The notes under the pieces: model-generated | Databases searched by the model: none | Seen by the model: the letters and a program-made list of their open reading frames with translations, nothing else | Told to the model about the DNA's origin: nothing | Assembly: GCA_008632985.1 (NCBI GenBank) | Contig: QPGO01000169.1 | Location: 1 to 64,000 of the forward strand | Direction of reading: 5' to 3' | Source of the DNA: Psammoneis japonica | Lineage: Eukaryota | Length of the DNA: 64,000 nt | Made by a program: the position numbers and the translations under genes | In this document: piece by piece, positions 10,384-49,252 of the stretch | How positions within the stretch are numbered: position 1 is the first letter of the stretch | Layout of the letters: every line of letters begins with the position of its first letter

Positions 10384-10679
10384 GCGTTTATAGGTGGTTC
10401 CGTCCCAATCATAAATAGTCAGATAGCCAAAATCCTTATACTTCTTCTGGTATTCTTCGTATTCCTTTTCCCGTTCCTAGTGGTGGCATACCCGTGTGTA
10501 CGAGGAAGATCAGCAACCATCGACACGGGACTCAGTTCGCCGATCGAAAGATCAATGACCAGCGACATGGGACTGGACTGCGAAGAAATGCGGGTGACTC
10601 GATCTGAGATGATCGCAATCGAACGTTTTCCGAATCAAGAAAACAGACCTTCCAAGTTGGCAGTGAATCAAAAACTCTG

Positions 10680-13600: not shown

Positions 13601-16600
13601 GTCAAAGTGACTTGTCATGCACAGCACAGGAGCAGCCAATGGAGAACTCAGAAAATGGAGGCAATGCCAAAATGTGCATTTTGGACATTCTGATGGAACT
13701 GTGTGGTCAAGGCCTCTTGAAAGGGGCCCAGTGGAAAGACACATCCATGCACCCATCAAATGCAAAGAGAAGAAGCTGCTCCAAAACATGCTTGAGTTGT
13801 GCGATGTTGCAATGAAAACAATGGTGAGCGCAAAGCACTGAAGGGCAATGGACTCAACAACTGGGGTTTGAAAACTCATGCAAAGCAAAACAAAAACAAA
13901 TGCATGAGGAAAATGTTGGAGTGTCAAGGTCTGGATCCAGATGTTGAGGAGCAGCTTGAAAAAAGAAGATCATGAGTCATCAGAAAGCAGTGTGTGTGGG
14001 CATTTGGGTGTGTGTGCATTTGCACAAAAGGACTGAAGAAAAGGGCAGGAAGTGCAAAGATCCCTGTGACCCACCTCCTGGCAATGAGTCAACAGTCACA
14101 GGAGTGCCTCCAGGCAACATGCCTCTTCTCTCTTTCTGGGGTGCCAAGGCCAGGTGTGGAGTGGCACAGCTTTGTGTTCAGTGTTGAGTTTCCATGTGTT
14201 CATTTTTGGCACTCTTTTGTCTGGACCAAACTTGATGCTTCCCCAAACTGCCCCAGAATCCCCCACAGTTTTCTTGGTGGGAAAAGTTGTTTCAAAGAAA
14301 AGAGAAATCCACAACTCTGTGGGACCAAGCTTGTGGGACACACTGCAAATTTCTTGTTGAACAAATGGCAAAAAGCAGGGAGAAAATTGGCAAAGGCACC
14401 GCTGAGAATCAAAACAGTGCTGACCTGTCCAGAATTGCACAATCAATTTCTTTGGCAAATTTTGGACAAAAGAGAAATCCTCAACTCATGTTGACACACA
14501 ACACGGGGCCTGGCTTTTTGGGTGCATTGTGAAATTGTTGAGAGCAAAACAAGAAATGGGAAAACAGGTGAAAGCACCATTGAGACATCACACCACGAAG
14601 TGGGACACTGTCAGCATGCATCAATGTGCTGCTGCAGTTTGTTGTGTGCAACTGGGATTTCCACATGTGACCAATGGCGGATGTTGGTCAATGCAAATGA
14701 CACGACCAGCCAGTCAGCCACAAACATTTTCAAATGCGATTGCTTGCATTCTGCTTGTGGGCCCATTGAATGTTGGTTGACAAAACCTGGGTGCTCTTCA
14801 TTGCACAGTGTTCAAGAATCTAGATCAGGGATGAGAATCATCACATTCACCACCATTTCTCTTTGCGTTTGAGTTTGGCTTTGTGTTGGCCTGATTGCAT
14901 TCGCATTGCCCCCCTGATTGTGCACGCCTGTCCTTGCCCTGTGTTGCTGTTTTGCATTGCAGCATTTTAGACTCTAGAGTCCCCCACTGCTCTAGAAAAG
15001 AGAGCACCATCAGCACATTGCAGCATTGCTGTCACACGTTGAACCCCTCTTGACTGCAAGCAGCACTTGCACAGCAGCCCCACCAGTTGTGCAAGGCAGA
15101 TTTCAGACACAGCACACACAGCTTCTTCATTGATGACAACAACAGAAACTGCTTCCCACTTGCATGCGCTGCTCTGGCAAGCTCACGATCATCGAAATGA
15201 AGAGTTTCTGTTCCAAAGCAGTTGTTGCAACAAGGAAGAAGGACCCGTTGTGCAGCTTTGCAAACACTTTGGCTTTGTTCATTGCAGCCCTGGGCTCAAG
15301 CACTGCAAGTTCATTCCAGGAAAGAAGGAGGGAGAATCAGACAAGATGATTGCAGTTGACCTCAAGAATCATTGTTGGAACTAAAATGCTGGCTCACTGT
15401 CAATGAAGGGAGAGATCATTGCTTGAGTCAGGCGATCAAGCCAGCTCCATTCCCAGGTGGCAACAGCTCTCTCATCATGAGAGACAAAATGAGGGGTTGG
15501 GATCAATTTGCCCCAAACATTTCTGAGGTGCTTGCAGTTCTTGATTTCGCATGTGAAACATTGAAAGCTGTGACAACTGCATTTTTTTTGCTGCAATCTC
15601 CTTTCCTTGCTGTTCCACCAAACAGCCAGACCCACACTTTGCAAACTTGCCAGCACAGGGGCAAATGAGGGTCTTGATCATGTTGACCTCCTCAACATCA
15701 ACAAAGGGAAGGCTTGAAAAGGAAATGCTGGAAAGCTCTTTGGGGTGCTTGCTGGAAGGTTTGGTCAAGTTGTCTTGCTCATTGGAGAAATTCAAATCAT
15801 CAGCCAGCAATGTCGACATGATCCTTCTTGACACAGCCGTTGGTTGTGGTGCCCTGAGAATGATCAAGCTCAGACAGTTCTTCTTTGGCAGTCTCGGACA
15901 GCTTGTCTTTGTGGGTTGATTCTTTGTTGACAGTGATGGTCAGATGAAACAGAAAAATTCTCACAGAGTTGCCATCAAATGATTCAGTCCCTTCGGATTG
16001 TGTCATGGCCATGACTGTCTTGTGCACTGCAATGGTTTGCGACAGAGTGTGGAAAGAAACCAAGCAATCCACCCCACCAAATTTACATTGTTGGTTGTGT
16101 TCACAATCCGTTCAACCTTGCACACCATGATCTTTCACAACAGAGCATGAAAAGAAACTCATTGCTTGTCATTTTCTTTTGAAATGATCCATCCAGCTAA
16201 ACTCGCACAATTGGCCACACTCACAATCAGTTCAAATCAATCATTCTCAACCTCTGCAAACATCATTGAGTTGACCAAAAGGCAGCAAGAGCTGCCACAA
16301 GAAAAAGGCAGGACAATGTTGTCACACATCACCCTTTTCATTCTTTGCCATGGCGAACAAGAGGATGAGATGGTCTGCCAGCGTCTTTTGGCCAAAGAGG
16401 AGAGAAAGCAGAAAACCTGACACCTGGGGTTCATCAAAGGGAACAACAGATGCAAATCATTGAAGAAACAGTCAAGTGTCAACTCTCTGGACCCTCTGCT
16501 TGCAGCCAAAGGCCACGCACAGTCTCAAACATCATGGTTGGCTCTCATTTCTGTGATCCATGGGGTCGCAAGGTTGTGGTTTTCTCCTCTCCACTGCATC

Positions 16601-17590
16601 GCGCAATTGGAACTGCCACAGTGGTTGGAGGGGCCGCTTTGAGCACCAATGCATTGTGACCATGACTAGACTCCTCAAACGGGTTGGGAAACAATGAAAT
16701 TCCAATCACTGTGTTGAATGGCTTGGGTGATTTTGCTTCTGAAGTGTGCCATCGTGGCGGCATTGAGGCTTGGATTCCTTTGCATTCTGTTCGATGCTCC
16801 AACATGCGGGAAAATGATGGCACGTTGCAGAGACCATTTGTTTGTGCTCCATCTCAGATGCCAAGCCATTGATTGCAGGTGCATGGGAAATGCTCTCCCA
16901 TTTGGTTCTGGGGAACATCCTTGGGGACCTTTGTCCCAATGTCACCGTTTCTTGCTGCGGATTCCAAAGCGTGTGACATGGGAGAAGGGGAAGCAGTCAA
17001 GCACCCAAAAAAGCCAAGCAGCAAAGCTTTTGTGGCACCAAGGAATCCAATTTGTGCCACTGAGGATGCTGTGTGGATGACTCTTGACAGAGGTTGCTCC
17101 TTTTGCTTGTGTGGTTGTGTGTCTCATCGAGAAGCGATTCGCGCGATGTGGCAGAGGGGTGTGGTGTGTTCTCTCATCTGAACGCTCCCTGCTGTTGCAC
17201 TGGTTGTTTTGGAGCCAACGTTGAAGGAGATTTCATCCGCTTTGCCTTGTTGGATGTCTGGCATGCAGGACACTCCGACTTTGTTCTGAGACTGCCGCGT
17301 CCACCGCTGACTGGAATCCACTTGCGACTGATGTTCAAGAATGCAGGTGATGGAATGATGTTTCATCTGTGCAATGTTGAGGTCCTGAACCTTCATGATG
17401 GCAGGCTGGGGTTGCAAATTTGGTTGTCCTTGTGGAAATCACACAAGACTTTTGCCATGCCAGCAACCCGAGGATGCAAAAACTCTTCATGCTCAAGTTC
17501 AAGAAGGCCATGATTCCTTGGAGAATGAAGGGAACTGTGCCACAATGACTCCAGAGCAGTGCTCTTTCTTGTCATCAACAGATGTCAATC
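10680..17590. repeat. Block of heavily mutated TpA/CpG-depleted repeat remnants, mostly unclassifiable
   Basis: Almost no TA dinucleotides, excess TG/CA, and only Cys/His-rich spurious ORFs. Confidence 0.75.
11715..13420 (+). pseudogene. Decayed hAT-like transposase gene (TTF-type zinc-finger region)
   Basis: RHFQKLWTTDCNWLEV...VFCRHCQ resembles the R.F...W...YxWLxY...VFCxxC TTF finger. The downstream part is frameshifted and TpA-depleted. Confidence 0.4.
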
Positions 17591-22409: not shown

Positions 22410-22740
22410 GAGCCAATGGCACAGTCAATGAAATCACCCCCCCCCCACTTGAATCATGATTGTGTCATCCATGAAGCCAAACAGTGGCAGTGGCATGGTC
22501 CTGCAGTTGAAAATTGTCCACAGCCACCTCTCAGATGTGCTTTTGTTGTGGTCATTTGTGTTTGAGCAAGAAACTGTTGAAGAAGAATTTCTTGTAATTT
22601 GTCCATGATCATAATTCTCTGATGGGGAAGCAATGACTTGTCGGCTTGAGGGCATGGCACTGCAGCTCATTTGTTTGAAAATGACATTGGCTGTGCATTT
22701 TCATGCCAGTCAAAAGAATCTTCTTTTGGTTCAAGCAGGC
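22410..22740 (-). pseudogene. Decayed partial duplicate of the TMEM65-like gene (related to ~32135-32450)
   Basis: Translates GQITRNSSSTVSCSN...LWTIF...LFGFMDDTIMIQ versus RQITRNYSGTVSRSN...LWTVF...LGFGFMDNTIMIQ in the intact gene. Confidence 0.85.
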
Positions 22741-24706: not shown

Positions 24707-25288
24707 GACTGTGTTTCCTTGTATTAGGAGTACGAGTGCCTTGTTTAATGATCAGAAATCAGAAGCGCAAGGAGGAAGTATTAGCGGTAACTGGGTACTG
24801 TACAGTGTCCGGCATGATTCATCGTGAGACCCCACAAATACGGAGGGACCCTCCTGTAGAGCTCTATTATGCCTTGCGCGCAGGTGCCCCCGCGCGGACA
24901 CACAAGAATTTTTTCGACTCCCTCCGACACGCGCTCGCTAAAAAAAAACCGAAAAACGACTCCGGATGACATCTTGTCGTTGATTGTAAGTAATTGGACG
25001 ATTATCGTGATAGTTTGACCAGTCGGAAATGCTACACTAGTCCCTAAGATTATATCACTTGAAGGTCTTGTGAAGATTTGAAGAGACACTCGAGAAATCC
25101 ACCAGGATTTGTTGTGCTTGGATGTCACCGAAACACTGCACTTTTCCACGCAATTCATTCTTTGTCGCATCTCCATCTTCCTCCCTTGCAGTCGCACCCA
25201 TCTATTCTGGTGATTCAGCATTACACGGGACATTGCGTGGCTTGAACAGGCTGTAAGTAGACGAGACATTGTGTCGTGAAAAAACAAA

Positions 25289-26459
25289 ATGGCCAACAAC
25301 ATCGATTGCGCCACTGCAGCCCAGTGCGGACTTGCTGTCAATGACAATGGTGGAACGTATGAACGTGGGAGGGCACATGGCCTCGAGAAGAAGATCGAAG
25401 TTCAGAGGGTCTGTCAATCGCCACAAGACACATCAGAGAGCGGCAGGCCGAATCTAACAGAAGTCGCTGGGTTTGCAGGGTTGACCGCAAATTTGCAGTC
25501 AAAGTGGAACGAGAACTTGACTGTTACGGCCAAGTGCTTCACCCCAAAAGATTCACCAGAAACAAATGCATGGTCCAGGCGTCAACACAATTGACAGTCT
25601 AGATGCTTTTGTCCTTCTGATTCTGTGTCTGGACGAGCCAAGTCGCTCGCTGTCCAACTGTCGGGAGAATCTGTGCAACCTCACAGGAGCAGTGGTTTCG
25701 AACGCTGCCATCAGCAGATTCTGGAATTATGCATTTCCAATCAGCGGGAAACTTTGCAAGCCAAATCTCATTCCCCATGATAAATTCAAACCCGACAACA
25801 TCCTACGAGTGCGCGAGTTCATGATGGTTGTCGCCGAGGTTGATCCATGGAGGGTCAAATGCGGAGATGAGAAGCTGCTGAAAGGTTCAGAAGTGCATTG
25901 CCGAAGGACAAGACGAAATGCACTGACGGGGGAAGTCCCACCATCCTTCACATCCTCTGATTTTTGCAACACATGCCCCATCATCGGCTTTTGCGGTGTC
26001 GACACAAGGACCTGCCCAGTGCATTGCCGGATCCACAACGAGCCGAATGATGCGGAACAGTTTGCAATGGAGATTGAGCATGCAGTGTGTCGGGGCTTTC
26101 TCAGAGGCGGTGACATCCTTGTTCTAGACAATGCAGCCCACCACGTGCATGGTGAAAATGCGGTTCTTGAAGAATGACTGTGGATGGAGCATGGCACATT
26201 TGTTTTGTTTCTTCCAACGAGGACCCCTGAATGGAACCCTGCAGAACTTGTGTGGCGTCAACTTGTGACACAGCTCAAGCACTGTCTGATTCACAGGCTC
26301 TGCTCGCACACCAAGCATTCCATCGCCTGTGCTGCCCATGACGTGTCATCCCAAATTACGCATGACCAAGTCTTCCGCATGTACAGAGCATGTGGACATG
26401 TGTCCCAAGCTTGTTCTACAACAGAATGCTCTGCTGTAGAACACCCTACAACAGACTGA
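25289..26459 (+). pseudogene. IS630/Tc1-family DDE transposase, disrupted
   Basis: Motifs KCGDEK...ILVLDNAAHH...LFLPTRTPEWNPAELVW. Frameshift near 25480-25570 and TGA at 26175. Confidence 0.88.
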
Positions 26460-26949
26460 GATGCAATTGAAACTTCTAGGCCCTGGGTGCATGACACACA
26501 GAGTCGTTCTATGCTGGGAAACACACACGTTTTCCCGCAAAAAATGTCTCTAAAAATTGACACTACTTTGCCGTTACGAGATTGGATCCATTCGATTCAA
26601 ATTGTTGATCCGAAAAATACAGCAGTTAGACTTTCACCCCGGCGAGAGCCACAAAATACGCAAGACATGAGCATTGTCGGTTTCCTGTCCTTTAAAACAA
26701 TGTCTTGCGAGAATAGAGCAAGCATGCATTGTTCATGGTGCCGGGCATTTGAACATGAAACTAACTTTTCGCGGAGCACTGTCATACGAGAAAGCACAAG
26801 GGACGATGCGATTTTTAGTGATGGATCTGCAACCAACTGAGTTGGGTCTAGATTGAGACACCTGAACAGTGCAATGGTGACAAGATGCAAACACAGTCAC
26901 CAGCACAGAGAGTCTTGATTGGTTTCAAATGCATCAAGTGGGTTCACGT

Positions 26950-28825
26950 GGGAGTTCTGCAGAAACTCGTCTTCAAACATCCATGCCTTCACATCCAACA
27001 GAAGCATTGTTCAAAGCAACATCCTCGCAGACTTGCAAACTTTCAGACTCGTTGGACAATGAGAAGGATGGTGCAGTCAATGCAGGACGATTCTTTGGAG
27101 GACTGGGGAAGGAACATGGCCCCATGCCATTTTGAAAGGAATTCTCCTCGCCGTCAGGATGGCAGTTCTCCTTCTCCTGCATGCCATTTTCATCAGAATG
27201 CATGGGCTCTTCCTCATGTCCTCCATCATGCCCTCCATCATGTCCATGGGAGCTGCGACGATCATGGGAGGAGGAGCTGGGAGGTTGGTTTTGGTTGCAG
27301 TGGCGATCATCTTTGCAGCCACTAGAAGCAGCGACATGGTGCCTCTCTTCTTGATCACCCGTGCTTCGGCCAGACCGACTTTGATTGCGGCGAGAGATGC
27401 TGTCAGAGTGACTGCACTCCCTGTCACTGGTGCGAGTGCTCTCACCACGGCGAGAGATGCTGTCAGAGCGACTGTGCTCCCCATCACTGGTGCAAGTGCT
27501 CTCACCGCGGCGAGAGATGCTGTCAGAGCGACTGTGCTCCCTGTCACTGGTGCGAGCACTCTCACCGCGGCGAGAGATGCTGCGACGGCAGTGAGAGCGA
27601 GAGCGACTGCGACGGCGTTGAGAGCGAAACGATTGTGGCAGCGATGGGAATCACTGCAGTCACTCTCACTGTCGCTGGAGCTTGGACTGTGGCAAGAGCG
27701 GCTGCGGCCTCTGCTCCTGTGTCCTCTTGAATGACCACGATGACTGCTGCTGTGGCGTCAATTGCGGGAACGACCACGACGCCTTGTTTGTTCTTGGCAA
27801 CAGGAATCATCAGACTGCCTCTGACCATGTGGCATTGGATGCCCGGAGCCAAGCTTTTTGAGGAAAAAGAGAAAAGGCCAGTGAGTGGAGTCAAAGAAAT
27901 CAAAAAGAAATGAAAGATGTGAAAGATGCATGAATGCAGCAAAGCAATGATGTGATGCTCACAACGAACTGCCCATTGGAAGCATTCAGTGATTGTGTGC
28001 ATTCCTTCTTTGCATCTAGAGCATTCTTCTTCTCCTGCTTTTTCAAATCAACTTTGATTTGCTCTTTCACCCTGAATTCTTTGACACATGACAGGCTCGC
28101 TTGTTTCTTCTTTTCACACACGTCGTCCTGCGAGGCATTGTTGCTGGAGCTCTTGTTCTTCCTGTTGGACTCTTTGGCTGCTGCAAGCTGCTGTTTCAAT
28201 GACTCGATTTGTTTGTTCTTTCTCTTCAAATCCTTTTCCATGCTCTCCAGCTCCTTCTTGTCTCGTCGCGACTGCTCAACCGCGGCATTCTTTGCGCTCT
28301 GAATTTCGTAGAACTTGTTTTGAAGCGTTGCCTTTGACTGGGCCATCTTGACAAGACTGCCATGCATGGACTTCACATTGTCATGCATGGAATCGATGGA
28401 TGTGGCTGCTGCTGCCTCCAAGTGTCCATGGCTGTTGTGCTTTTCTGCCAAAGTCTTCTCCAATTTTTCAATGCACTCATTCGCCAGCACGACTGCATTT
28501 GTGCAGGGGGCAACCTTCTTTCCCCCCTTGGCTTTGTGACAGCACCCGGCAAGTCCTTCTTGTAAAGCTCATTCTGTTTTGGAGGCAGCAGTGGCTTCTG
28601 AGGTGGTGCAGGAATGTGATCGGGTGCAGGGATTGACGGTGGTGTTGGCTCGGTTTCGGTGCGCGTCGGAACTTCGGTCCTTTCTCTTGGTGGGTCCCAC
28701 TCTGGAGACACTGTTGATGAATCTTGTGACATGATGTCATCATGGCAACTTGGAGCCATTGCCCAAGGGGCGTGGGAGTACAACGAGCTGCCGCCGGCTC
28801 TCATTCGACTGAGTTTGTTTGTCAT
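26950..28825 (-). pseudogene. Second, convergent ORF inside the Tc1 element (coiled-coil + Arg/Ser-rich repeats), disrupted
   Basis: Pro-rich N-terminus, coiled-coil segment 27900..28490, RS-rich frame across ~27390-27780. Confidence 0.5.
27387..27582. repeat. 60-bp tandem repeat, ~3.3 copies
   Basis: Unit CGGCGAGAGATGCTGTCAGAGYGACTG..CTCCC..TCACTGGTGCRAG..CTCTCACCR repeated. Confidence 0.92.
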
Positions 28826-31318
28826 GGCGTCGTTTTTGTGCTTTTTTTGTGCATTGCGGTGAGCGGAGCGACTGCAGAAAAAAATCGACGTTCGCGCGGG
28901 GGCACCTGCGCGCAAGGCACAACACGCAAATTTTTGCATGTGGCACTGAAACATGCAGCCTACATGTGCAAAACTGGTGCAGTTTCTACGACAAAAATCC
29001 AAAAAAAACGCCCAGTTCGTGAGAAAGCTCTGGTGCAAAACCCACGTGAACAGTCCCCACACATTCACGCAGAACTCTGCACATTTCCGGGTTGCGGGTC
29101 CCTCCGCATTTGTGGGGTCCCACAATGATGATGCTGCTGGATGTTCGTTGTTCATGTTCTGGGGGGCATCTTTGGAAGTGAGATCGTCGAAGGCGGTCTG
29201 ATCACCAGTGCGTTTGGGGGTTTTCCCAGTGCAATTTGTGCGCACAAGAAAACACGTAGGATCTGTCCAGAGGTCCCAAATGCCCAATTGCACTGATTGA
29301 CAGACTGTTTTGGTGCAAATTCTATGTAACTTTCTTTGACAGTCTCACTTCCGAAGACGTCCCCCAGTTCGATTGGGTGGCGGGGACATGCATGCATGTC
29401 GTGCCACAGTGCTAGAGTGGAAAGTCTGTCAATCAGTGCGATTGGGGCATTTGGAACACGCTGGACAGGCACGTGCGTGACTCTTCGACTGATCCGACTG
29501 ATCCGACTGATCCAACTGGAGAAGGAGGGTGCCTCCGAGCCAAGATGACTGGTTTTGGTCTTTTGGATTGTGCCCAGTCAAACATCAGTTTTTTGCTTCT
29601 CACTTTTCCAGCTCTGTTGGAACAGGAACATTGACCACTGTGACTGGATCACATTGCAGCTTGGAAAAGGTTTTCCAGCCTGTTCCAGCCCGAGGGGTGA
29701 TGAGCAATCCACCACGACTCGGAAAAGGTTCTTTGCTCTTCTCTCTCCCATCATGTCTGACTTCTTTGCCTCCACCAGCATTGGCAAAGATGCGCTCATT
29801 CATTTGGCTCATCAACTCAAAACGGGTGTGGTCTTGGTTGCTCCTCCAATCTCCAGCAGCAAAAACCCCATTCGCCCAGTTGCCCAGTGCGGTCTTGGGT
29901 GCCGACATGAGAGGGTTGAGGATTGCCACTCCAAAGATGACCACTGGCCACTTGAGGGGAGACAATTTCCCCCAGCTCCTGCCTGTTCAACATCTGGTTG
30001 AAAATGACCCACTCACTTGAAAGACCTCCTCCAACACTTGAGCCCCCAAAGAAGCCAGTGCTTGGGCCCCCATGACCCCCCTGCTGTGGCAGAGGAGAAA
30101 GGCGTGTCTCTCCTTTGTCATCACATGCTGCACCTTGTTGCTGCATCACCTGGTTGGAAGAGACCACTGACTTGTGTCTCATTGCTTTGGCACCAACAAG
30201 GGAAGCGGGGCCGTGCTGTTCTGTTTCAAGAAAGCAGGTGAGTGCAATGCACAAAGCACAAAGGTGACAATTTGTCAACCCCATTGGATGGTTTGGTGGC
30301 AGTCCTTAAAACTCTAGACACCAGGTTCAGCCAACCCATTTTGGATGGGGGCCTGATGTCAGCTGATGTTCTGGTCAAGTGGAAGTCTGTGAAAGACGAC
30401 ACTTTGGCTGATTGGCAAAAGAAATTCCTTGTCCTGCACAACATTGATGACTGTCCCACAGAGGATGAGGTTGGGGCTTCTCCCTGAGAGACTGTCAAAA
30501 AGCTGCTGAGTTTAAGACTGTTTGGCATTGCCTGGGGCTTCAACAGGTTTGGACTTTGTCTCAGAAGGCTGTCGCCACAACACTGGCTCAGTTCTTGGCT
30601 GCGAACAAGAGTCCATCAGCTTTGGCACATGCACAGGGCAATCAGTGGAGGATGGTTTGCACCAGGTGGGAGAAGTTGTGTTTGAACTGAAAGACAAGGT
30701 GCGTGCAAAAGGGAAGTCCATGGATGGAATGATCCAGCTCTTGAGCCAAAAGCTGGACGAACTGGAGGCAGCTTGGTGAACATCACGGCCGGGTTGCAAG
30801 GCCTCAAGATTGGCTTGTCGCCTGCTGGTGATTTTAAGTCTTGGCTTCAGCAACTTTAGAAGGACTGGACAAATGACTCAAATTTTCCACAACTGCTGCC
30901 CCTCTTTTCTGTCATCAACAGATTCCCACAACCTGCCAGTCAACATCCCATTGTCTCATGACACCAGCCACCCCACTCCACTGCCCCCCTCATCCACTCC
31001 ATTCCATCACACCTTCTTCAGCCTCCCCCGTCATGCCCACCCACCACCTTCCCTCCTTCCCTGGCCGCATCGGATCCCGTGCACAGCTTGACAGTTGCTG
31101 TCCAAAGTCTGATTGCCAGACTGTTTCAGTGCAGAATAATTATACAGAAGATTCTTTGTACAGCAGCTGTCCAGAGACGCCTCCCATGCTAGCCATCCTA
31201 GATCAGTGCTTCAACGAAAAATGATTTGGCATGTTGAACATAGTCCCAACTACTGCTTCACACTTCCACGTCTTAGCATTGCTTCATCTCTATAACATTA
31301 TACTCAGTTCAACCAGCT

Positions 31319-34723: not shown

Positions 34724-37700
34724 CGTGTTGTTGATAATTGTCCTTACAGAGTCGTTTCGCTCGTGCTTGGCAATGCAGAAAGGAGTCCACGTAGACTTGT
34801 AAACAGGAGAACAGCACGAAAACTCTACAGAAACATGATGGTTTCCAGTTTCCAGTTTGTTGTTTGTTGCGAGTATCTCTAGGGCCCTAACAGTGTGCCG
34901 TGCGGAACCCAAAAGGATGCTGAATGCTGAGAGATGACGCGCGGGGGACAGTGCAGACAGAAGCGAGCAAATAGTCTACGTGCGGAAGTTCAACGGAACA
35001 CACGAAACCCAACAGTGATGACGCTGGCATCTACCTTGTTCCATTTATCATCGATCGCTTGGGAGCTCCCGGCTGCTTTGCTCACCGTCTCCTTTTTGGA
35101 GCTCACCAGGAACACCCCGTCCCCCTGCTCCACCTGCCCCTCCTTGGACCACTGCCTGAATCCTCCTTTCAACACCCAGCTGCCCTTGCCACGTGCGCCT
35201 GCGCCCAACCATCACCATCTGCTGTCCTCCCAGCTGCCACCACCACTTGGAAAAACACCTCTACTGCATGCTTTGGCTTGACCCACCACATGTCTGCTCC
35301 ACCACAATGGGGCCTTGAAAGCCCCTCAGCTTTGCAATTGCCAAGTCGCTTGCTGACCAACTCACTCGCTGCTCCACCAAACTGCAGCCCCAACTCACCA
35401 CCCCACCCCCAGACCCATTCCCGTCCCCACCTGCATGACCCAGCACACAGCTCCACCCTTGCTCTGTGTCTGAACCCCCCCCCCCCCCCGGTGCTGCCAG
35501 GTGACGTTCTTGCACGCAAGCTTTTCTCCCCACGTGCGTGCACTGCTGGGTGGTTTCCCTGACCAACAAACATGCACGAGGACAGAAAAATTGTCCCGCT
35601 GTCACTGGCAATTTCCAGAAGCTCAGTCAGATCTACAGACAGCTCAGCTGTTGTCCCGCCCCACCCACTCCTTTGCTCAGAGCTCTGGTGGGCTTGGGCC
35701 CCAACATCAGGAGCTCTCAAAGCCTGCCAGCTTCAAACTCCCAGCACAATGCAGCCCCCACTTCCATTGTGCACAGCCAGCCATGTGCAACAATTTCACA
35801 CAAAATTGCTGAAAACCATGCGCTTCTGTTGTGCAATGCCGTTTTTTTCTTTTTGCCGTGTTTGAGGAGACTCTTGCCCATTCCGAAAGTGGACTTGCCA
35901 TGGTGTGGCAAGTCCAGTGCACCCATGATGGGAGCCATTCCCTTTGGCATGTCTGCCATTCCACCGTCCATGCTCACTTGGGGATTTGAGGCTGAAGCAC
36001 AGTGTGTCGCGGCCAAGAGAAGGAGGCATGCCAAGAGCAAACAAAGTGGCTCTGCCCTTGGCATCAGCAGCAGCTGTGATGCATCATCATCGGGTGCTGA
36101 CAGTGATGGGTTGTTGTGTGCCAGTGACTGAGAGCAGGCCTGCCTTGCCATCATTGGGCGGAGTGCAGTCGGAGGAGAGTCTGAGTCCACTCCCAACTGG
36201 GAGGTCTGCAAGTGGTGCAGAAGAGAGAAGGAGAAGACCTCCCACGGATCACAACGTACCAGGCTAACTGGCGCAGCTTAAAAAAATTGCACCGTGTGAT
36301 TTTTTTGGTTCATGGCACAAAAACGAGAAATTCTGCGCAGAATTTGCGCAGCCACCATGGCGAATTTGTGTCGCCTCCCCATGTTGTTGTCACCGTTTTT
36401 CACAAGGTGAGTCACTCAGGACATTGTCGACATTTGTCTGTGGCACCACTGTGTGTTGGCTCAATTTTGACAAGTGCCACTCCGCGCAAGAATGTCGATT
36501 TCGATTCCTTCGGTGTGTGAGTCTGCTGCTGTTGTCATCATTCCGGTGTGTTTCATCAAGTTTGTTGTTGTTTCCTTCCTCTCATCCCTTGACCTATGCA
36601 CCATTCATTTCACAATAAACACAGACAAGAGGTGATGGTGTGTGGGACTCCTTTGGGGTGTTTGAGGTGAGCTCTGGATGTCGCGGTTCGTGGTTGGTGT
36701 GTTTCCAACAGACAACAGTGGTCCGGCACTTGTTCTGTTTGTTTCTTGGTCTGCACGCAGATTCTTCCAAACAAAAGGGCCTCATGCTTTACTTTGTGGA
36801 ATGTTTTGATGATGCAAGCAGTGGTGTTCATGGATCATTTGTTGACATGGCATGTGAGTTCTCTGGCAAACTAGGTGGCCTTCCAAGAAATTCCTTGAAG
36901 ACCTCTCTGCATCCGACAACATTGTGGACACCCTGATCCATTTGACAACCCAGAAAACATGGTGTCATCAGGAGCTCAAATGATGTCAATCTCTTGGAGG
37001 ACATCTTTGCAGGTTGCAACAACGTCATTTGTGGTGGATCAGTTGGTTTCAAGCAGCATTTGCGCAGGTGGGAAAAGGACGTGTACGTGGTTGCGCTGGC
37101 AATGTTTGATTCGGAGAAGATTTGTGACAGAAACATCACTCCTGTGGGAACCATTCAGATGCTGTTGGGAGGGCTTTGTGGCATTCTTGTCGGAGGTGCA
37201 AAGCATCGTGCGATTGGCCTGGGTTTTGTTGTGCACTCAGCTCACTCCATGCAATGAGCAGCATCGATTTTTTGCATCGAGTGACCTTTGCCTCAGAATT
37301 GAGCTGGGCATCTTTTCACAGTTTTGTTGCAACTCTCTTAGCTCCTTCTTTGTTTTATTTTCTTGCGGACCTCCTTTTGACTTCAATCCAGCCGTGTCGA
37401 CGACGACTCAACCCGAGTTTCCCGATTCGTCACACTTCACATTGTGCTTGTGTTCCTCTTCTGTCAATCAACTTTTCAGTTGAAAGAGATGCACTCGTGT
37501 TGTTTTGGACTGGTGGTGAGCAGACGGGGTGCTGAATGAAGTTCAAAAGCATGAAGAATTGAACCTCTTGGTGCCGGCCGGTGCAACAAATCTGAAACTG
37601 CCGCCATTGGGGTGGAGGGCAGACGTTTTGTGCCATTGCCGCTGCGTTGAACGTGATTCATGTGAGGTGCGTAGAAATCACGTAGAAATCTGTCTGTGCG

Positions 37701-38829
37701 CCAGTTAAGGCGGACCGTCGGCTCATTTTTTTCGCACGTCTTTTCCGGGTTTTTCAGCATTTTTGACGGGTCGCGACAGAAAACAACACGACAAAAGCAC
37801 GAGTGACAATGATGATGTTCGCGACGAGCGGTGAGTTGCAAAGCATCACCTCACGAGGGACACTCATTGGTTTTATTGTCGTGATGTGGTGCAGATTGAT
37901 TTGTGTGCTTTCGTCCCTCGTGCCGCTGGGCCAATTTTGAGAGATAGCGTGATGGCCGTCATCGTCGTGCTTCGATCGCGGTGCCTGGCTGTTCTCGTTT
38001 TCGAGGGCGATCGAACAATTCTTGCATTTAAAGTTGATAAATGCAAGTGAACGCACTCAAACACAATGCCAATTTTTGGGACAAACGCTGAAAAAACAGG
38101 TCGGGGAGTTGCAGGAAAAAACAATTGTTGCACTGCTGCTTGATGGCACGGATGATGTGACACGCGGCAGCTTTTTTTGTGGCATTGTTTGTCTGCCGCA
38201 TTGCCCCGCAAACAACATCATCATCTTGTCTGCCAGTTGTCATGCTGGGTGTGTCTGTCATGGAAACGAACAGAGGGCTGTTTTGTGCTTTTGATTTTTG
38301 TTGCTGAGAATCTTGAAATTTGCCATGCGAGAGGAAAAAGTGAGTGCTTTTGGTTGAAGAGAAATGGAGTCAACCAACCACAAGCTTCAACGGGTGTGAG
38401 ACAAGAGTGTGGTTTTGAAGCTCGGCATCGGCATCTCTGTCGCACGGCATGACATCCCCATCATCTGCGCGCGGAATCATCAGAAATAAAAAATGCATGT
38501 GCTGATGCACTGCCGGCGTCTGTCTGCACCCCGCAAGGCTTGCCACGAAAAAGCGCGTGAAGCACACGTCACAATTGCATCATCGGTGGGTGCATTTTCA
38601 TCCCCGGGCGCGCTGCCGCCACCCGCCCGTGCGTCACGGAGATGCAGTCCGGCGCGTGCTGTGGGCCCTGTGACAGTGCTGTGGGGCCCTGCTGCAGGTC
38701 TGCCTGTGGTGGGGAGGAGGGGTTCGCTTTTGCTCGCGATCGAACTCGCGAGGCGTTGCATCGACAATGAGATTAAGGAACGTTCATGGCAACATCATCT
38801 TGGCGACAACATGCTTTCTACTGTCAATT

Positions 38830-39765
38830 TTAGTTGTCAAAACAACCCACATCAAATGGTGAGCAACCCATCATGAGGGCCAACTGTGTGATGTTGGCCA
38901 TGGCATGAAACACATGGCAATGTGTTTCCTTCGCATGGCGGTGTCTTTTGTTGAGTGTTCCGAAATGCTTGAACCATCCATTGACAGCCTCATGCCTTGC
39001 CCTTGCTGTTGTTTTCATGGCCTCGTCTGCATTTCTTAGGCCGGATGGAGTCGAGCTGCACTGGCTCCCGTTGCTGCAGCCACCGTCGGCTGGACACATC
39101 TCGCCGTCTTCAAGCTCTTCAATGATCCATTCACGAGCAATGTTCAGATCCGGCAACCCAGCTGGGTGCGGCCCATTGACCCAAACAATCCACCCTGTCT
39201 GAATGCATGTTCCAATTTCACACCGCAGACCAGCACCGTGGAATTTGTGGGAGAACCACATTGGATCGAATGGTGATGGCTCGTAGATTCTGAAATCAGT
39301 GCCGTCGAGTGTCACCAAACATCTGCTGCCGTTGTCATCAATGAAGCGGTCTTCCCAGTGAATCTAAGAACAAGGTGTCAGTCTGTTTGTTTCATGCATG
39401 CAAGTCCCATCTGGAATGGCACACACCAAATTTAACTGTCCAACAAGTTGAATTCCGACCCAAACCCATTTTCTCAGCATGTCTTCATGGATTTTATTAC
39501 AGATGCCAGCAACGACTGTCTCAGATTCATGCAATTTGAGAAAGCAAAGGGTGCAGAGCATGTGAATGGGCAAAAAACCTCGTGGTGTTTTCCCATCGTC
39601 AAGGAGAAGCCCCCACAACTCAGATGCTGCTTCTTCTGGGGTACAGAAGTGTGATGCGAACCGACGTTTCCACACTGCAGTTGACCCTTTTGGCTTCTGA
39701 ATGATCGTCTGTGCAAGCACTCTACGGCCTCTTTGGGCAGTCTCATGACAAGTGATTGGCAACAT
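38830..39765 (-). pseudogene. PIF/Harbinger (DDE_Tnp_4-like) transposase; intron 39364..39426
   Basis: IHWEDRF...VTLDGTDFRI...FSHKFHGAGLR(C)EIG...ADGG(C)...ARARHEAVNGWFKHF, with Cys/His at normally Tyr positions. Confidence 0.9.
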
Positions 39766-40684
39766 GCCACAGTGTGTTGCTTTAGTCTTTTCTCTGTTGC
39801 ACCGTTTGTGCTAGTCTCTACTGCCAGCAGCTAGTCTCTGGTCTCTAGCTGGCCACTCTAGAGCAGCAGTTGTTTTATATTTGACAATTATGTTTTGTCG
39901 TCTTCACGCAGTTGGGGTTCTCATTAGAAGAGGCCTTTGGTGAGATTCCGTCGTGTTTGAAGAAAATACGAAAAAAATACGATTCGGGTGTGGTTTCCGA
40001 ATGGTGACTTCGGGACGTTCGCAATGGGCAACTTTGGGCGTCGTTTTGTCAACCGGAACACGGTAGAATGACCATTCCAAAGCGTGCTCTCAGCTCAACT
40101 AACACAGCAGTTTACATGCAACATGTGATGCAGAATTTTACAACCACAATCCATTGTTGGTGGGGCATTAAAAAAGCATTCTTATTCTACAAATCGAAAT
40201 GAAATCGCCTTTTCACAGACGAAAAGCGCACGGAAACATGCTAATGAAAAGCCAAAATAAACATCAGGAGCTAGTTTACCATCAGTGCTGTCGCAAATGC
40301 ACGCCGAAGCTTAGGATTCAGCCACTCATTCTTCAGTTGAGTGGGTCCAAAGTCATCGTTCTGGAGCTGAAAATCGTTTGGGTGTGATTTGGGAACGATT
40401 TTTGCATGGTCTCGGAACGTTTTTCGTGTGGTCTTGAGGGAATCTTCGTTGTCAAGAGGCCCTTTCTCAATGTTGGCGGTTGGTGTTTTCTCAAATCTCA
40501 TTTTGGCGGTTGGAATTTATTCAAATTTGAAAAGAGCATCCCGCGGACAGTGGTGAGGTAAGTTGGTCGTGACCCATTCAAAAATGGGGTTCTCATTGCT
40601 GCCCGTCAACGCGAACGCTGATCTTGACGACTCTCGACTGTGCACCATCAATCCTCTCATAAAAAAGAGAAAACCAAAGAAACC

Positions 40685-41803
40685 ATGCCCAAACTCAACC
40701 AACGAACCAAATCGGTTCTTGACACTGAGGCCGCCGGCCCCCTTCGAGCAGTGTGGCGCAAGGGGTCCGCCGACTGCAAGCTCTTGAAGGAGATGCTGAT
40801 GGATGGGAGGGCAAGCGCTGGAGCGATGCCAAAAGAGATCCAGCAGATGCGCGCAGAGTTCATGCGCCATCCACTGGACAAGTTCCGCACTGGCTTGCAC
40901 AGGCTCAAAGACGAAACCGGGTTCAATCTTCGTCAAACGATGAACGACAGCAATGAGAACCCTGACGGTGAGTTTTGATTTTCACCGCATTCGCACATGT
41001 GTTCGAAATAAATGTGAGTGACGTCACTGTGTTGCTGACGCGTGCATTTTCATTTGACCGCGTCGCGCGGTGTTCTTTTTTTTCATCTGGCCACAGACAC
41101 CGACGACGGTGACGAAGAGCTGTTCTCGGGTGGCCTTGACAGCACTCGTCAGACGGTGTCGGCTCCAGCTCCTGCAAACAACAACGATGCAGCTGCTGTC
41201 ATGAATGGAGCTGGTGTTGCTTCTGTGATGGAGGCACATGGTGGTGGGCAAGGAGGTTCTTGGAAAAGCTTCAAGCCCATGGTTTTGCAAGCCACTTGCA
41301 AGGACTCTGTCACCAAGACCAATCATGTCGTGTTGGTTGTTGTGGCTCCATCTGGTGTTTGCACCACGGACCTTTCTGGCATCCAGCTGTCTGTTGTGAG
41401 CAATGGGTGGATGCTCAGCTGCGTTTCCCAGTGGCCACAGCACTCCATGGACATGGACGCTCTCCACGCAGTTCTCCTTGATGAAGCCACTGCCCAAGGG
41501 GGAAACCACGGTGGCGATGATGAACTCCGTGACATCTGCAAGCGCCTTGAAGCTCTTTCAGATGAGCTGTCTTCAATGAGGCAGTCTGACTCTGAGGTCC
41601 TGTCTTCCACATCCCTTGTGCCCTTGCCAATCCAGGTCTCCAGGAAAATCAACAAGGTTCATTTGTTGGGTGGTCGCGATGGGTCCAGGATCATTTGTGT
41701 GGACCTCAAGTCGGAAGATTCGACATGCTGCGCTATGGAGAATCCAAAAGTCAAGTTGATTGATGCCACAGGCGACGGTGTTGGACTCATTGGCTGCAAT
41801 TAG
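40685..41803 (+). pseudogene. Accessory ORF of the Harbinger element; intron 40968..41096
   Basis: MPKLNQ...ENPD joins DTDDGDEE in frame across a GTGAGT...CACAG intron. Divergent from the transposase and Tyr-free. Confidence 0.55.
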
Positions 41804-42560
41804 GAGCTGGACGCCAGCGGACAGGATGCACATGCATTTGACACAATGCACAGATTGGGATTTGGGGTCATTGGCAACTGGTTGGTGCAACAAAATGTTC
41901 TTTCAATGACAGTCTTAGCACAGCTGCTGCTGCAGCAGCAGCAGGGCCTGCTCCAGCCAGCAGAGCAGACTGCAGTTTGACTCGGTGATGAACTCGGCAG
42001 TGCGAGTGCAGCAGTGCTCACGCCTTTGGCTTTTCGCTGTTGCACGTGCGACGTGCGTGCGGCATGCTGGCAGTCATCGCAATCGTCTGCTCTCTTTCTC
42101 TGGCAGGTGCAGTGCAGTGCGGCTGCCCGGCACATGCAGTGGGTTCGTTTCTGCAGGGCCCTGCTCTCTCCACTCTAGCTGCCACTGGTAGTGGGACTAG
42201 TAGCCAGCTATCTGCGGCGCGGGCTGGTGGCGCCTTTTTAGGGAAAAAACGCGTGGAACCATGCGCAGACGTTTTTTCCTGCAACTCCCGGCGGTCCCCC
42301 TTAAAATGACATCACATGTTACGATCCGCGGGAGTGGTCCGAGTCATTCAGTCGTTACATTTGTGATCTCTGACGCGCGCTGGTGCTTCCGGTTTTATTC
42401 CGATCCGGGTCTTCCCAAGAATCTGCAGTGAACGCGGATGCAAAAGATATGTTGAAAGAACATCACACATCACGTTCACAATTTCTATTGTTGCCAGTTA
42501 TCAAGTATCCAGGTGAGTTCTCGTCACTCTAGTTTTTCTTTGTCGTTTCGTAAGAGACTT

Positions 42561-42701: not shown

Positions 42702-42855
42702 GCGAGAGTTGTTGTTGGCGACATGTACGGATTTTTGCCTCCTTTTCGATCTCGTCACACGATACCAATCTCTCAACAGTGCCAGTATAACTTACGAATC
42801 TTCTTTTTGTCTCGGCGTTGTCTCCTGCGTGCTATTTATAGACCACAGAACAAGA

Positions 42856-44853: not shown

Positions 44854-45579
44854 CTTTGTGCCTAAGTCACTCTCTATCTAGTGCATAATTTGTATGTTGA
44901 AAACAAGAATTAGGGCTTTCTGTCTTGCACGGCATTTTACGTGCCGCAGACTCCCTTAGACTAACTTGTGTGCTGTGCCGACACAGCTCTAGAAGGCAGA
45001 TTGACGCACAGACTCAAGAGACATGCCCAGGGACACATTCGTCAATCGCTGGAGTAAGTCGTGCTCAAAGACATTGCTTTGCATTACCAGTGGAGGGAAA
45101 GGGTCCAACCAACTCTTGTTTGTGCAAAGAACATCTGTCTGATGCACACTGCAGAGGATTTTTGATGCCGTCCTTTTTTCTGTTCTTTTCACAAGCTGTC
45201 CATTGTCAAAGAAGAAGAACAGGCAATCACAAGCTGCATGACCAACAGCATGAAAGAGCAATCAGCACATTCTCACTGCTGTGACAAATCCTTTTCAGTG
45301 CTTTCCTTTGAAAGTTGGAGTGTCAAGCATGTCTCACATGCATGCCCGTTGCATCTGCCTGCTCTCAAGGTGTCTCTCCATTATTTTGTTGCAGCAGCAG
45401 CAGCAGCAGCCAAAGGTGGGTTGCAGCAGATGGTGAGTGTGCCCTGCAATCCATGGCAACTGAGCTTTTTGCATTTTTCTCTGCAGCTGAGAGCTGACAA
45501 CAGAAAAAATGTTGTGCAAAGCCACATGTTTGGTTTTTTGAAAAGCTCGGTGGTGCAGGTGACATTTGGGCAGCGTCAA

Positions 45580-45599
45580 TGTGTGTGTGTGTGTGTGTG

Positions 45600-45633
<34 letters not shown>

Positions 45634-45668
45634 GTGAGTGAGTGAGTGAGTGAGTGAGTGAGTGAGTG
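45580..45668. repeat. Compound microsatellite (TG)n(GA)n(GTGA)n
   Basis: Directly visible in the sequence. Confidence 0.97.
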
Positions 45669-48999: not shown

Positions 49000-49252
49000 T
49001 TCATCGTGGAACCCCGCAAATACGCGGGGACCCTCCTGTAGAGGTCTACGCGCATTTTTGTATGTGGTACAAAAACATGTAGCCTACATACGCAAAACTG
49101 GTACAGTTTCTACGACAAAATTTCGAAAAAACGCCTAGTTCGCGAGATAGCTCTGGTACAAAACCTACGTAAAAAGTCCCCATACATGCACGTACAACTC
49201 TACACATTTCCGGGTTGCGGGTCCCCGCGTATTTGTGGGGTTCCACGATGAA
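49000..49252. mobile_element. Intact palindromic MITE-like element, ~34-bp TIRs
   Basis: TTCATCGTGGAACCCCGCAAATACGCGGGGACCC ... GGGTCCCCGCGTATTTGTGGGGTTCCACGATGAA, with GA on both flanks. Confidence 0.88.

What the first reader, a model, noticed from the sequence alone, without database searches (positions are those of the whole stretch)
28923..29128. Internal control: two copies of one MITE show 13 of 16 TpA converted while most CpG survive
Manual alignment of 49049-49252 (intact) with 28925-29128 gives 16 TA sites. Eight read CA, five TG, one AA, and two are retained (both CTAC). Only about a third of the CpGs changed, and AA/AT/TT runs are mostly unchanged. The Tc1 target duplication reads TA on the left (24865) and CA on the right (28923), and the right TIR reads GGCACAA where the left predicts GGCATAA. 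TSDs are identical at insertion and Tc1/mariner elements target TA, so the direction is TA->CA and the change post-dates insertion.
Basis: seen in the sequence. Interest (0 to 1): 0.86.

Follow-up and report, generated by a model that had tools for sequence, protein, structure and literature searches.

The report
TpA-erasing mutation in diatom silent DNA
In this diatom, a small mobile element pushed away from a gene by a transposon lost almost all its TA dinucleotides to CA or TG, as all non-gene DNA here has, which points to a targeted DNA-editing process reported so far only in one unrelated alga.

Summary
Of the 16 TA sites in MITE copy B (49 kb), copy A (29 kb) reads 8 CA, 5 TG, 1 AA and 2 TA. 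Nine of 14 CpG survive, and none of B's 27 CA/TG sites is TA in A.

The direction TA->CA/TG is now supported by independent evidence:
- The TA/CA target duplication and an empty site in copy B.
- Two host-gene fragments in TA-free zones that lost 10 of 11 and 22 of 23 of the parent genes' TA sites, with Tyr codons turned into His/Cys.
- The Tc1-like transposase, which has lost its conserved Tyr to Cys/His.
- 72 related loci with ordinary TA content.

The window is diatom DNA and is a mosaic. Genes and their promoters are normal. About half of the window has TA o/e 0-0.1, and its older parts have also lost CpG. Loss follows a strand motif, 5'-TAY.

The RIP-like reading, in which copy B is the derived copy, is rejected.

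The closest precedent is a 2026 preprint on TpA hypermutation in Bigelowiella natans. Eight full-text searches found nothing for diatoms. The enzyme and the rate are untested, and no genome was available.

The parts
24816..24866 (+). MITE copy A, left part. It lies in a TA-normal zone next to the 5' end of the DUF5898 gene and keeps 3 of 3 TA.
24865..24866 (.). Left target-site duplication, TA.
   Evidence: empty site TCTA|CGC in copy B
24867..28922 (+). Tc1/IS630-type (DDE_3) transposon inserted into MITE copy A. TA count per 500 bases falls from 22 (24501-25000) to 0-2 (27001-28500).
24867..24971 (+). Left terminal inverted repeat of the transposon (TTATGCC...).
28820..28922 (-). Right terminal inverted repeat (reverse complement TTGTGCC...). 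Both TA of the left repeat are TG or CA here.
25521..26456 (+). Transposase remnant: two ORFs separated by a TGA where homologues have Trp. Conserved Tyr is replaced by Cys/His.
28923..28924 (.). Right target-site duplication, now CA.
28924..29133 (+). MITE copy A, right part (the finding). 13 of 16 TA are converted to CA/TG and 9 of 14 CG are kept.
49000..49252 (+). MITE copy B, uninterrupted. Its 34-base TIRs (49000-49033 and 49219-49252) have 1 mismatch. It lies in a TA-normal zone upstream of ORF 47184-49109(-).
22413..22735 (+). Fragment copied from the TMEM65 gene (parent 32139-32450), lying in a TA-free zone. The parent's 11 TA read 6 CA, 2 TG, 3 other and 0 kept.
51581..52229 (+). Fragment copied from the 3' end of the FG-GAP gene (parent 44372-44997). 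The parent's 23 TA read 12 TG, 7 CA, 3 other and 1 kept; its 35 CG read 19 CA, 13 TG and 0 kept. Six Tyr codons are lost (4 to His/Cys) and the stop TAG is now CAG.
10501..17500 (.). TA-free, CpG-poor domain (16 TA in 7000 bases; TA o/e 0.03, CG 0.30, CA/TG 1.7).
27001..31000 (.). TA-free domain that holds the finding. CpG is largely kept up to about 29250 and lost beyond.
35001..42000 (.). Mostly TA-free domain with CpG partly kept, made of multi-copy repeats. It includes a PIF/Harbinger transposase relic at 38833-39363(-).
45001..47000 (.). TA-free, CpG-poor domain between two genes.
49751..57000 (.). TA-free, CpG-poor domain (27 TA in 7250 bases), with a gap of N at 53443-53851.

Best explanation
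Shown. The stretch is the right-hand 210 bases of a 253-base MITE that a Tc1/IS630-type transposon split at a TA. After that insertion three things lost nearly all TpA by transitions to CpA or TpG, while CpG decayed more slowly: this half of the MITE, the distal part of the transposon, and the DNA beyond them. The half that stayed next to the gene's 5' end kept its TpA.

This is one case of a domain-wide process in this diatom. ORF-bearing genes and up to about 1 kb upstream of them keep ordinary diatom composition. All other DNA is stripped of TpA and, later, of CpG. That includes transposons, fragments of host genes, and stretches that single long contigs cover at the same summed depth as the genes. 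Loss is fastest at RTAY, half as fast at RTAR/YTAY and slowest at YTAR. This fits one strand-specific event: A->G in 5'-TAY, which is the same as T->C in 5'-RTA.

Inferred. The process is an enzyme-driven editing of silent chromatin, most likely deamination of adenine to hypoxanthine in DNA by a polynucleotide adenosine deaminase, as proposed for Bigelowiella natans. The slower CpG loss is ordinary deamination of 5-methylcytosine in the same methylated domains. Its effect is to inactivate mobile and duplicated DNA: Tyr codons become His/Cys, and TA target sites and TATA-like signals disappear.
For: Direction and timing:
- TSD TA/CA plus the empty site in copy B.
- TIR pairs differ only toward CA/TG on the distal side.
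- 13:0 asymmetry between the MITE copies.
- The transposase has C/H at 6 of 9 Tyr columns, with Tyr 0.6% against 1.7-4.7% in 7 homologues.
- Gene fragments: TA changed at 11 of 11 sites (8 to CA/TG) and at 22 of 23 sites (19 to CA/TG). Six of 6 Tyr codons are lost, 4 of them to His/Cys, and TAG became CAG.

Domain property:
- 54 of 128 500-base bins have TA o/e <0.15, against 0 of 1439 bins in 72 loci around RPC2 orthologues.
- Long ORFs with Pfam families (RPC2, MFS, MatE, TMEM65, RING, FG-GAP, DUF5898) all lie in TA-normal zones.
- One transposon of a single age shows a gradient with distance from the gene.
- Genes show no leak: the RTAY share of TA is 0.316, against 0.305 in the 27 closest loci.

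Specificity:
- Survival of RTAY / mixed / YTAR is 0.18/0.47/1.07 in partly depleted zones and 0/0.08/0.39 in old zones (chi-square p 1e-10 and 9e-21).
- ATAC/GTAT sites: 0 in depleted zones against 162 in normal zones. TTAA sites: 20 against 28.
- The predicted products RCAR+YTGY rise from 44 to 67 per kb, while RTGR+YCAY rise from 37 to 46.

Sequence support:
- An X1 contig of 5588 bases matches 29425-35012 with 2 differences.

Precedent:
- In B. natans mutation-accumulation lines, 230 of 231 mutations in two viral inserts were A->G/T->C, all at TpA. The authors propose an ADAT2-like deaminase (preprint 10.64898/2026.01.13.699255; abstract, Results and Discussion read).
Against: - No mutation rate was measured. 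All evidence is substitution patterns in one 64-kb window.
- No genome is held, so no deaminase or other enzyme could be sought, and the family consensus of this MITE was not obtained (table truncated).
- A->G in TAY cannot be told from T->C in RTA, so the chemistry is open.
- CpG decays in the same domains, so one general transition bias of silent chromatin remains possible.
- The width of the protected zone is not uniform: about 1 kb upstream of 24751 but under 100 bases upstream of 34975.
- Reverse changes exist: 2 TG->TA and 1 CA->TA in the gene fragments, and 3 of the 40 shown variant rows.
- Outcome by site class in the three polarised pairs is only weakly as predicted (RTAR: 5 CA against 2 TG; YTAY: 4 TG against 3 CA).
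- All runs come from one sample and one study, and may be the source of the assembly, so the reads are not independent support.
Confidence: 0.7

Rival explanations
1. The domain-targeted process is the same, but the chemistry lies on thymine. A modified thymine (for example 5-hydroxymethyluracil or a J-like base made by a TET/JBP-type dioxygenase) at 5'-RTA in silent chromatin mispairs with G and gives T->C.
For: The signature T->C in RTA is the exact complement of A->G in TAY and fits equally well. That modified thymines in some protists favour TpA is recalled knowledge and comes from no call.
Against: No call supports a thymine modification in diatoms. The only experimental precedent for this signature argues for adenine deamination, and that too is untested.
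Confidence: 0.12
2. There is no targeted process. A genome-wide mutation bias against TpA and CpG acts everywhere, and purifying selection keeps TA and CG in genes and promoters, while old neutral DNA drifts to CA/TG.
For: TA-normal zones coincide with ORFs that have family matches. The oldest-looking zones, with no protein relics among 184 of 190 ORFs scanned, are the most depleted.
Against: The left 0.6-0.9 kb of the transposon and the left MITE half have the same age as their right parts and are unlikely to be under selection, yet they keep their TA. Genes show the same RTAY share as relatives, so synonymous and boundary TA are not eroding. In the MITE, TA sites changed in 14 of 16 cases against 12 of 149 other positions.
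Confidence: 0.1
3. RIP-like reading: copy B at 49 kb is the derived copy, mutated CA/TG->TA, and copy A is closer to the ancestor.
For: TA against CA/TG differences between repeat copies are what fungal RIP produces. Copy B's bin has the highest TA o/e of the window (0.88).
Against: - The TSD and the empty site fix one site as TA->CA.
- Copy A's left half and left TIR carry the same TA as copy B.
- Copy B still has 27 CA/TG sites in 209 bases.
- Functional genes would have to be the mutated partners of their own fragments, with His/Cys turned into conserved Tyr.
- TA-free DNA is absent from 72 related loci.
- RIP does not make CG from CA/TG, yet 13 of the 40 shown rows have CG in other copies where the window has CA/TG.
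Confidence: 0.02
4. Artefact: modified bases in silent chromatin are misread by the sequencing chemistry, or the assembly is faulty, so the CA/TG calls are not the true sequence.
For: Domain-sharp, near-complete 'conversion' resembles an epigenetic domain. All runs come from one sample.
Against: Logan contigs of run X1 reproduce a depleted-plus-genic stretch with 2 differences in 5588 bases. The changes include ordinary accompanying divergence, indels and broken reading frames in the fragments. A 409-N gap points to a scaffolded assembly, though the chemistry is not on record. That common short-read chemistry reads known modified bases as their parent base is recalled knowledge, not tested here.
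Confidence: 0.03

Closest known systems
TpA-specific hypermutation of integrated viral DNA in the chlorarachniophyte Bigelowiella natans (Mettrop et al., bioRxiv 10.64898/2026.01.13.699255, 2026; abstract, Results and Discussion read; supplements closed)
   Same: Changes are almost only A->G/T->C at TpA and give TpG/CpA. They are confined to particular regions of silent or foreign DNA. The long-term footprint is TpA depletion with CpA+TpG enrichment, and DDE and reverse-transcriptase domains are enriched among TpA-poor sequences.
   Different: - Here the host is a diatom (stramenopile), not a rhizarian.
- Depletion is saturating (TA o/e 0-0.1 over 54 of 128 bins), whereas the NCLDV insert has Rho 0.45.
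- It covers all non-genic DNA, including host-gene fragments.
- It is accompanied by CpG loss, and a flanking motif (TAY) is resolved. The words CpG, context, flanking and diatom do not occur in the preprint's main text.
- Here the rate is inferred from substitutions, not measured in mutation-accumulation lines.
Repeat-induced point mutation (RIP) of ascomycete fungi
   Same: Near-saturating transition mutation inactivates transposons and duplicated gene fragments, is context-dependent at the dinucleotide level, and leaves compositional domains in the genome.
   Different: The polarity is opposite: RIP makes TpA from CpA/TpG, and here TpA is destroyed. GC content is not lowered (about 48-51% in both zone types). 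Stretches covered by single long contigs at the same summed depth as the genes are affected too (depth is no copy number). The fungal mechanism (a RID/DNMT4-type enzyme, premeiotic) is untested here. Some diatoms carry DNMT4 related to RID, of unknown function (PMC9998398, passages read).
CpG decay by deamination of 5-methylcytosine in methylated transposons (diatom TE methylation by DNMT5a, PMC9998398, passages read)
   Same: CG->TG/CA in non-genic and transposon DNA, with CG o/e about 1 in genes.
   Different: It explains only the slower CpG component, not the faster TpA loss. Methylation itself was not measured here.

Membership tests
TpA->CpA/TpG regional hypermutation (Bigelowiella type) | Changes are almost exclusively A->G/T->C and fall on TpA. 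| tested here: met
   In the three polarised pairs, 13 of 16, 8 of 11 and 19 of 23 TA sites became CA/TG. CpG transitions occur as well, which the Bigelowiella report does not describe.
TpA->CpA/TpG regional hypermutation (Bigelowiella type) | [quoted passage not shown] | tested here: met
   The window is a mosaic with sharp borders. Genes are spared and show no shift in TA context. Here the regions include host-derived fragments, not only foreign DNA.
TpA->CpA/TpG regional hypermutation (Bigelowiella type) | A de novo rate orders of magnitude above background, active in only some lines. | not testable with these tools
   This needs mutation-accumulation or pedigree resequencing. Only a relative excess is seen (14 of 16 TA sites against 12 of 149 other positions).
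Fungal RIP | C->T/G->A transitions that create TpA from CpA/TpG. | tested here: not met
   The direction is the opposite.
Fungal RIP | Triggered by sequence duplication. | tested here: inconclusive
   Depleted stretches 29967-31300 and 45308-46641 carry the same summed contig depth as neighbouring genes. Depth is no copy number, and ancient repeats could have diverged beyond recognition.
MITE | Short, non-coding, with terminal inverted repeats and multiple copies. | tested here: met
   The element is 253 bases long with 34-base TIRs that have 1 mismatch. There are two copies in the window. Summed contig depth in the bin holding copy B is about 20 times that of neighbouring bins (a rough indicator only). 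The target-site duplication of the MITE itself was not resolved.
Tc1/mariner/IS630 superfamily | DDE_3 transposase, terminal inverted repeats, TA target-site duplication. | tested here: met
   - Pfam DDE_3 scores 25.3 bits, below the 28.6 cut-off, on the 93-aa ORF.
- Seven homologues carrying PF13358 align at 40-48% identity, with E down to 6e-55.
- TIRs of about 105 bases at 74% identity.
- TA on the left, CA on the right, and the empty site in copy B.

The most novel reading that the evidence does not exclude
Diatoms of this lineage possess a chromatin-directed DNA editing system, an adenine deaminase acting at 5'-TAY. It erases TpA from every stretch of DNA that is not an active gene or promoter. 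It would be a genome defence of opposite polarity to fungal RIP, related to the system inferred in Bigelowiella, and therefore possibly old within the SAR supergroup. TA-free heterochromatin, spurious long ORFs and the loss of TA insertion targets would be its by-products.
Probability: 0.35. Interest if true: 0.92.

Novelty: new variant of a known kind. Interest (0 to 1): 0.85.

Why it matters
Until now a TpA-specific, region-restricted AT->GC hypermutation rested on one 2026 preprint in one rhizarian alga. Finding its saturated footprint in a diatom, a major group of primary producers, would have four consequences.

- It would show that the process is neither a laboratory oddity nor limited to viral inserts.
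- It would give the process a flanking motif (TAY) that any candidate enzyme must reproduce.
- It would tie the process to gene-proximal protection, which points to chromatin control.
- It would offer a natural experiment: one MITE split by a transposon, with only the displaced half edited.

There are also practical consequences. TA-free DNA carries no TAA or TAG stops, so it produces long false ORFs. It would also distort estimates of repeat age and composition-based screens for foreign DNA.

Tried and rejected
- Whole genome: none is held for this window. Genomic copies could therefore not be collected and no enzyme gene could be sought.
- Metagenome scan for a conserved 23-base MITE pattern: 0 matches.
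X3 laid nothing.
- No RNA holder is listed. X2 is on record as 'DNA?'. Its contigs lie on the ORF-bearing stretches and one skips 125 bases with GT..AG ends. I take this only as a hint that it behaves like cDNA. Parts without X2 cover are not used as evidence of silence.
- A contig joins 48998 to 49278 with 17 other letters in between, that is, without copy B. Whether it is the other allele or a paralogue could not be told.
- Pfam scans covered 184 of the 190 ORFs of 90 aa or more in depleted and partly depleted blocks (181; 6 in the transposon zone were not sent). Only DDE_3 (below cut-off), DDE_Tnp_4 and zf-MYND (both above cut-off) and a few weak sub-threshold hits were found. No protein relics were available in the old zones.
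- Outcome (CA against TG) by site class in the three polarised pairs: too few sites to be significant. The composition test was used instead.
- Earlier findings of the scan: none by place, words or sequence.
- Literature: eight full-text searches found no report of TpA erosion in diatoms or other stramenopiles. Subscription journals are not covered.
- Readings rejected: RIP-like mutation of copy B, sequencing artefact, and pure mutation bias with selection (see the rival explanations).
Full report
WHAT THE WINDOW IS

The longest ORF (3100-7071, minus strand) is the second-largest subunit of RNA polymerase III. Its best named relatives are diatoms: Fragilaria 83% over part of its length, Phaeodactylum 78%, Seminavis 76% and Nitzschia 75%. 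Other long ORFs carry ordinary cellular families: MFS, MatE, TMEM65, RING, FG-GAP and DUF5898. No whole genome is held for the window.

THE OBSERVATION

- Copy B's 16 TA sites read 8 CA, 5 TG, 1 AA and 2 TA in copy A.
- Copy B's 14 CG read 9 CG, 2 CA, 2 TG and 1 TC.
- None of B's 27 CA/TG sites is TA in A.

The 13:0 asymmetry has a binomial p of 2.4e-4. TA sites changed in 14 of 16 cases, against 12 of 149 other positions (p 1.4e-11) and 5 of 14 CG (p 0.007).

The element is a MITE of 253 bases with 34-base inverted ends (49000-49033 and 49219-49252, 1 mismatch).

Copy A is split. Its left 51 bases lie at 24816-24866 and keep 3 of 3 TA. Between the halves sits a 4056-base element (24867-28922) with inverted ends of about 105 bases and a DDE_3-type transposase remnant. 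The Pfam score for that remnant is below the cut-off, but seven PF13358 homologues align at 40-48% identity with E down to 6e-55.

The element is flanked by TA on the left and CA on the right. Copy B shows the uninterrupted site TCTA|CGC.

DIRECTION

Five independent lines agree on TA->CA/TG.

1. The target duplication must have been TA on both sides at insertion.
2. In copy A the left TIR reads AAATACGG and the right TIR (reverse complement) reads AAATGCGG. Both TIRs of copy B read TA. Both TA of the transposon's left TIR are TG or CA in its right TIR.
3. Nine alignment columns have Tyr in at least 3 of 7 transposase homologues. At these the window copy has Cys 4, His 2, Leu 1, Phe 1 and Tyr 1. 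Its Tyr content is 0.6% against 1.7-4.7% in the homologues, His 6.1% against 2.3-3.4%, and Cys 5.8% against 0.7-2.7%.
4. A self-comparison of the window found two fragments copied from host genes and now lying in TA-free DNA.
   - The TMEM65 fragment (22413-22735) changed all 11 parental TA sites (6 CA, 2 TG, 3 other) and 11 of 12 CG.
   - The FG-GAP fragment (51581-52229) changed 22 of 23 TA (12 TG, 7 CA, 3 other) and all 35 CG (19 CA, 13 TG, 3 other).
   - In the FG-GAP fragment all six Tyr codons of the parent are gone (TAC->CAC twice, TAC->TGC twice, two others) and the stop TAG reads CAG.
   - Reverse changes are rare: 2 TG->TA and 1 CA->TA.
5. The TA-containing state is the ordinary one. 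72 metagenome loci around RPC2 orthologues (736 kb) have whole-locus TA o/e of 0.48-0.94. None of their 1439 500-base bins falls below 0.15, against 54 of 128 bins in the window.

A further hint comes from the 40 best-supported variant rows shown when contigs of run X1 were laid on 29300-49299. This is a selected subset; 1349 rows were not shown.

- In 26 rows the window copy of a multi-copy repeat reads CA/TG while other copies, up to 14 contigs and often most of the depth, read TA (13 rows) or CG (13 rows).
- Three rows go the other way and 11 are other changes.

THE WIDER PATTERN

The window is a mosaic.

- Zones holding the family-bearing ORFs have TA o/e 0.5-0.65 and CG about 0.9-1.1.
- The rest (10.5-17.5, 21.75-22.75, 27-31, 35-42, 45-47 and 49.75-57 kb) has TA o/e 0.03-0.11 and CA/TG 1.5-2.0. 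Stretches of 1500 bases contain no TA at all.
- GC content is similar in both zone types.
- Among the TA-free zones, some still hold most of their CpG (27-29.25, 35-39.25 and 40.75-42 kb). These contain the recognisable transposons. Others have CG o/e 0.18-0.30 and no protein relics.

The transposon itself shows the position effect. TA per 500 bases falls from 22 at 24501-25000 to 13, 5, 7, 13, and then 1, 0, 2 and 4, although the whole element arrived at once. Its TA-rich end adjoins the 5' end of the DUF5898 ORF (23051-24751, minus strand).

Before the insertion the right half of the MITE lay within a few hundred bases of that gene. The insertion moved it 4 kb away, and only that half was eroded (14 of 16 against 0 of 3, p 0.01).

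Copy B lies just upstream of ORF 47184-49109 (minus strand), inside a TA-normal zone.

Genes show no sign of the process. The share of RTAY among their TA sites is 0.316, against 0.305 in the 27 closest loci.

SPECIFICITY

Surviving TA in depleted zones are strongly biased by their neighbours.

| Context | Depleted zones (26.75 kb) | Normal zones (26 kb) |
|---|---|---|
| ATAC/GTAT | 0 | 162 |
| ATAT | 0 | 60 |
| GTAC | 3 | 82 |
| CTAG | 11 | 49 |
| CTAA/TTAG | 22 | 66 |
| TTAA | 20 | 28 |

Survival relative to normal zones, by site class:

| Zone type | RTAY | Mixed | YTAR | Chi-square p |
|---|---|---|---|---|
| Partly depleted | 0.18 | 0.47 | 1.07 | 1e-10 |
| TA-free, CpG kept | 0.03 | 0.14 | 0.31 | 4e-4 |
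| TA-free, CpG lost | 0 | 0.08 | 0.39 | 9e-21 |

The loss exponent of mixed sites is about half that of RTAY. That is what one strand-specific event predicts: A->G in 5'-TAY, equivalently T->C in 5'-RTA.

The same model predicts that mixed sites end as RCAR/YTGY. That class rises from 44 to 67 per kb, while the alternative class RTGR/YCAY rises from 37 to 46.

A per-strand fit ranks TA[T] > TA[C] >> TA[G] > TA[A]. The three polarised pairs are too saturated and too few to confirm the orientation on their own.

MECHANISM

Shown:
- The direction of the change.
- That it post-dates the insertion.
- That it is confined to domains.
- Its motif.
- That TpA loss precedes CpG loss.

Inferred:
- An enzyme acts on silent chromatin. 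The sequence motif and the near-complete conversion argue for an enzyme rather than diffuse chemistry.
- The domain borders argue for chromatin control.
- The co-located CpG decay fits cytosine methylation of transposon-rich DNA, which is known in diatoms (PMC9998398, passages read).
- Adenine deamination is the leading candidate only by analogy with the Bigelowiella proposal.
- A mispairing modified thymine would give the same footprint.

COMPARISON WITH WHAT IS KNOWN

The closest case is a 2026 preprint. In mutation-accumulation lines of Bigelowiella natans, two integrated viral regions mutated about 1000 times faster than the rest of the genome. 230 of the 231 mutations were A->G/T->C, all at TpA. 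The genome also holds clusters of TpA-poor, CpA+TpG-rich windows.

The diatom pattern shares the signature and the regional restriction. It differs in five ways:
- a different host lineage;
- saturation;
- coverage of all non-genic DNA, including host-gene fragments;
- the accompanying CpG loss;
- a resolved flanking motif.

Fungal RIP is a functional analogue of opposite polarity and fails its defining test here.

Eight full-text searches found no report for diatoms or other stramenopiles. The earlier notes of this scan hold nothing.

LIMITS

- The evidence comes from one window and one sample, with no genome, no measured rate and no enzyme.
- The X1 contigs that reproduce the sequence (for example 5588 bases with 2 differences) may come from the data behind the assembly.
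- Summed contig depth is not a copy number.

VERDICT

It is the local face of a striking, domain-wide erasure of TpA, which I rate as a new variant of a very recently described kind.

Noticed in passing
window 38833-39363 (-): A PIF/Harbinger-type transposase relic (Pfam DDE_Tnp_4, 25.8 bits, cut-off 24.8) lies in a TA-free zone that still keeps much of its CpG. It is a second DNA transposon caught at the same stage as the Tc1-like element.
   Followed up: partly
window 48998-49278: One X1 contig joins 48998 to 49278 with 17 other letters in between, that is, without MITE copy B. It may be the other allele (a recent, polymorphic insertion) or a paralogous site.
   Followed up: no
window 26973-27757: Three overlapping ORFs of 223-226 aa lie on both strands over a tandem repeat (27387-27462 and 27507-27582, 92% identity), with no Pfam match. 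TA-free DNA has no TAA or TAG stops, so long spurious ORFs are common: 190 ORFs of 90 aa or more in the depleted blocks.
   Followed up: partly
window 32837-32963: An X2 contig skips 125 bases with GT..AG ends between the TMEM65 ORF and the next ORF. This looks like a spliced intron. X2 contigs otherwise sit on the ORF-bearing stretches, although the run is on record as 'DNA?'.
   Followed up: no
window 29794 and 29891: In a stretch covered by one long X1 contig, the window reads CG and the contig reads CA at both places. These are two CpG transitions within the sample or between the assembly and the reads, inside a depleted zone.
   Followed up: partly
window 28 pairs: 44372-44997 vs 51581-52229: Twelve aligned sites read CA in one copy and TG in the other (4 + 8). 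This is the double difference expected where an ancestral TA or CG resolved differently in the two copies, or where CA/TG interconvert through short-lived TA/CG.
   Followed up: partly
window 53443-53851: A run of 409 N (scaffold gap) lies inside the long TA-free domain.
   Followed up: no
window 54844-54944: A 101-base perfect-register palindrome-like self match (83% identity to its own reverse complement) lies in the TA-free domain.
   Followed up: no
window 62125-62580 (+): An ORF with a MYND zinc finger (26.8 bits, cut-off 22.7) lies in a partly depleted zone (TA o/e about 0.2). Whether it is a live gene or a decaying copy is unknown.
   Followed up: no
window 29300-29966 and 35970-41972: Summed contig depth is 15-35 times that of neighbouring bins at 80% likeness, so these are multi-copy repeat families without recognisable coding capacity apart from the Harbinger relic. 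Transitions outnumber transversions among their variants (994 to 352 places in X1).
   Followed up: partly
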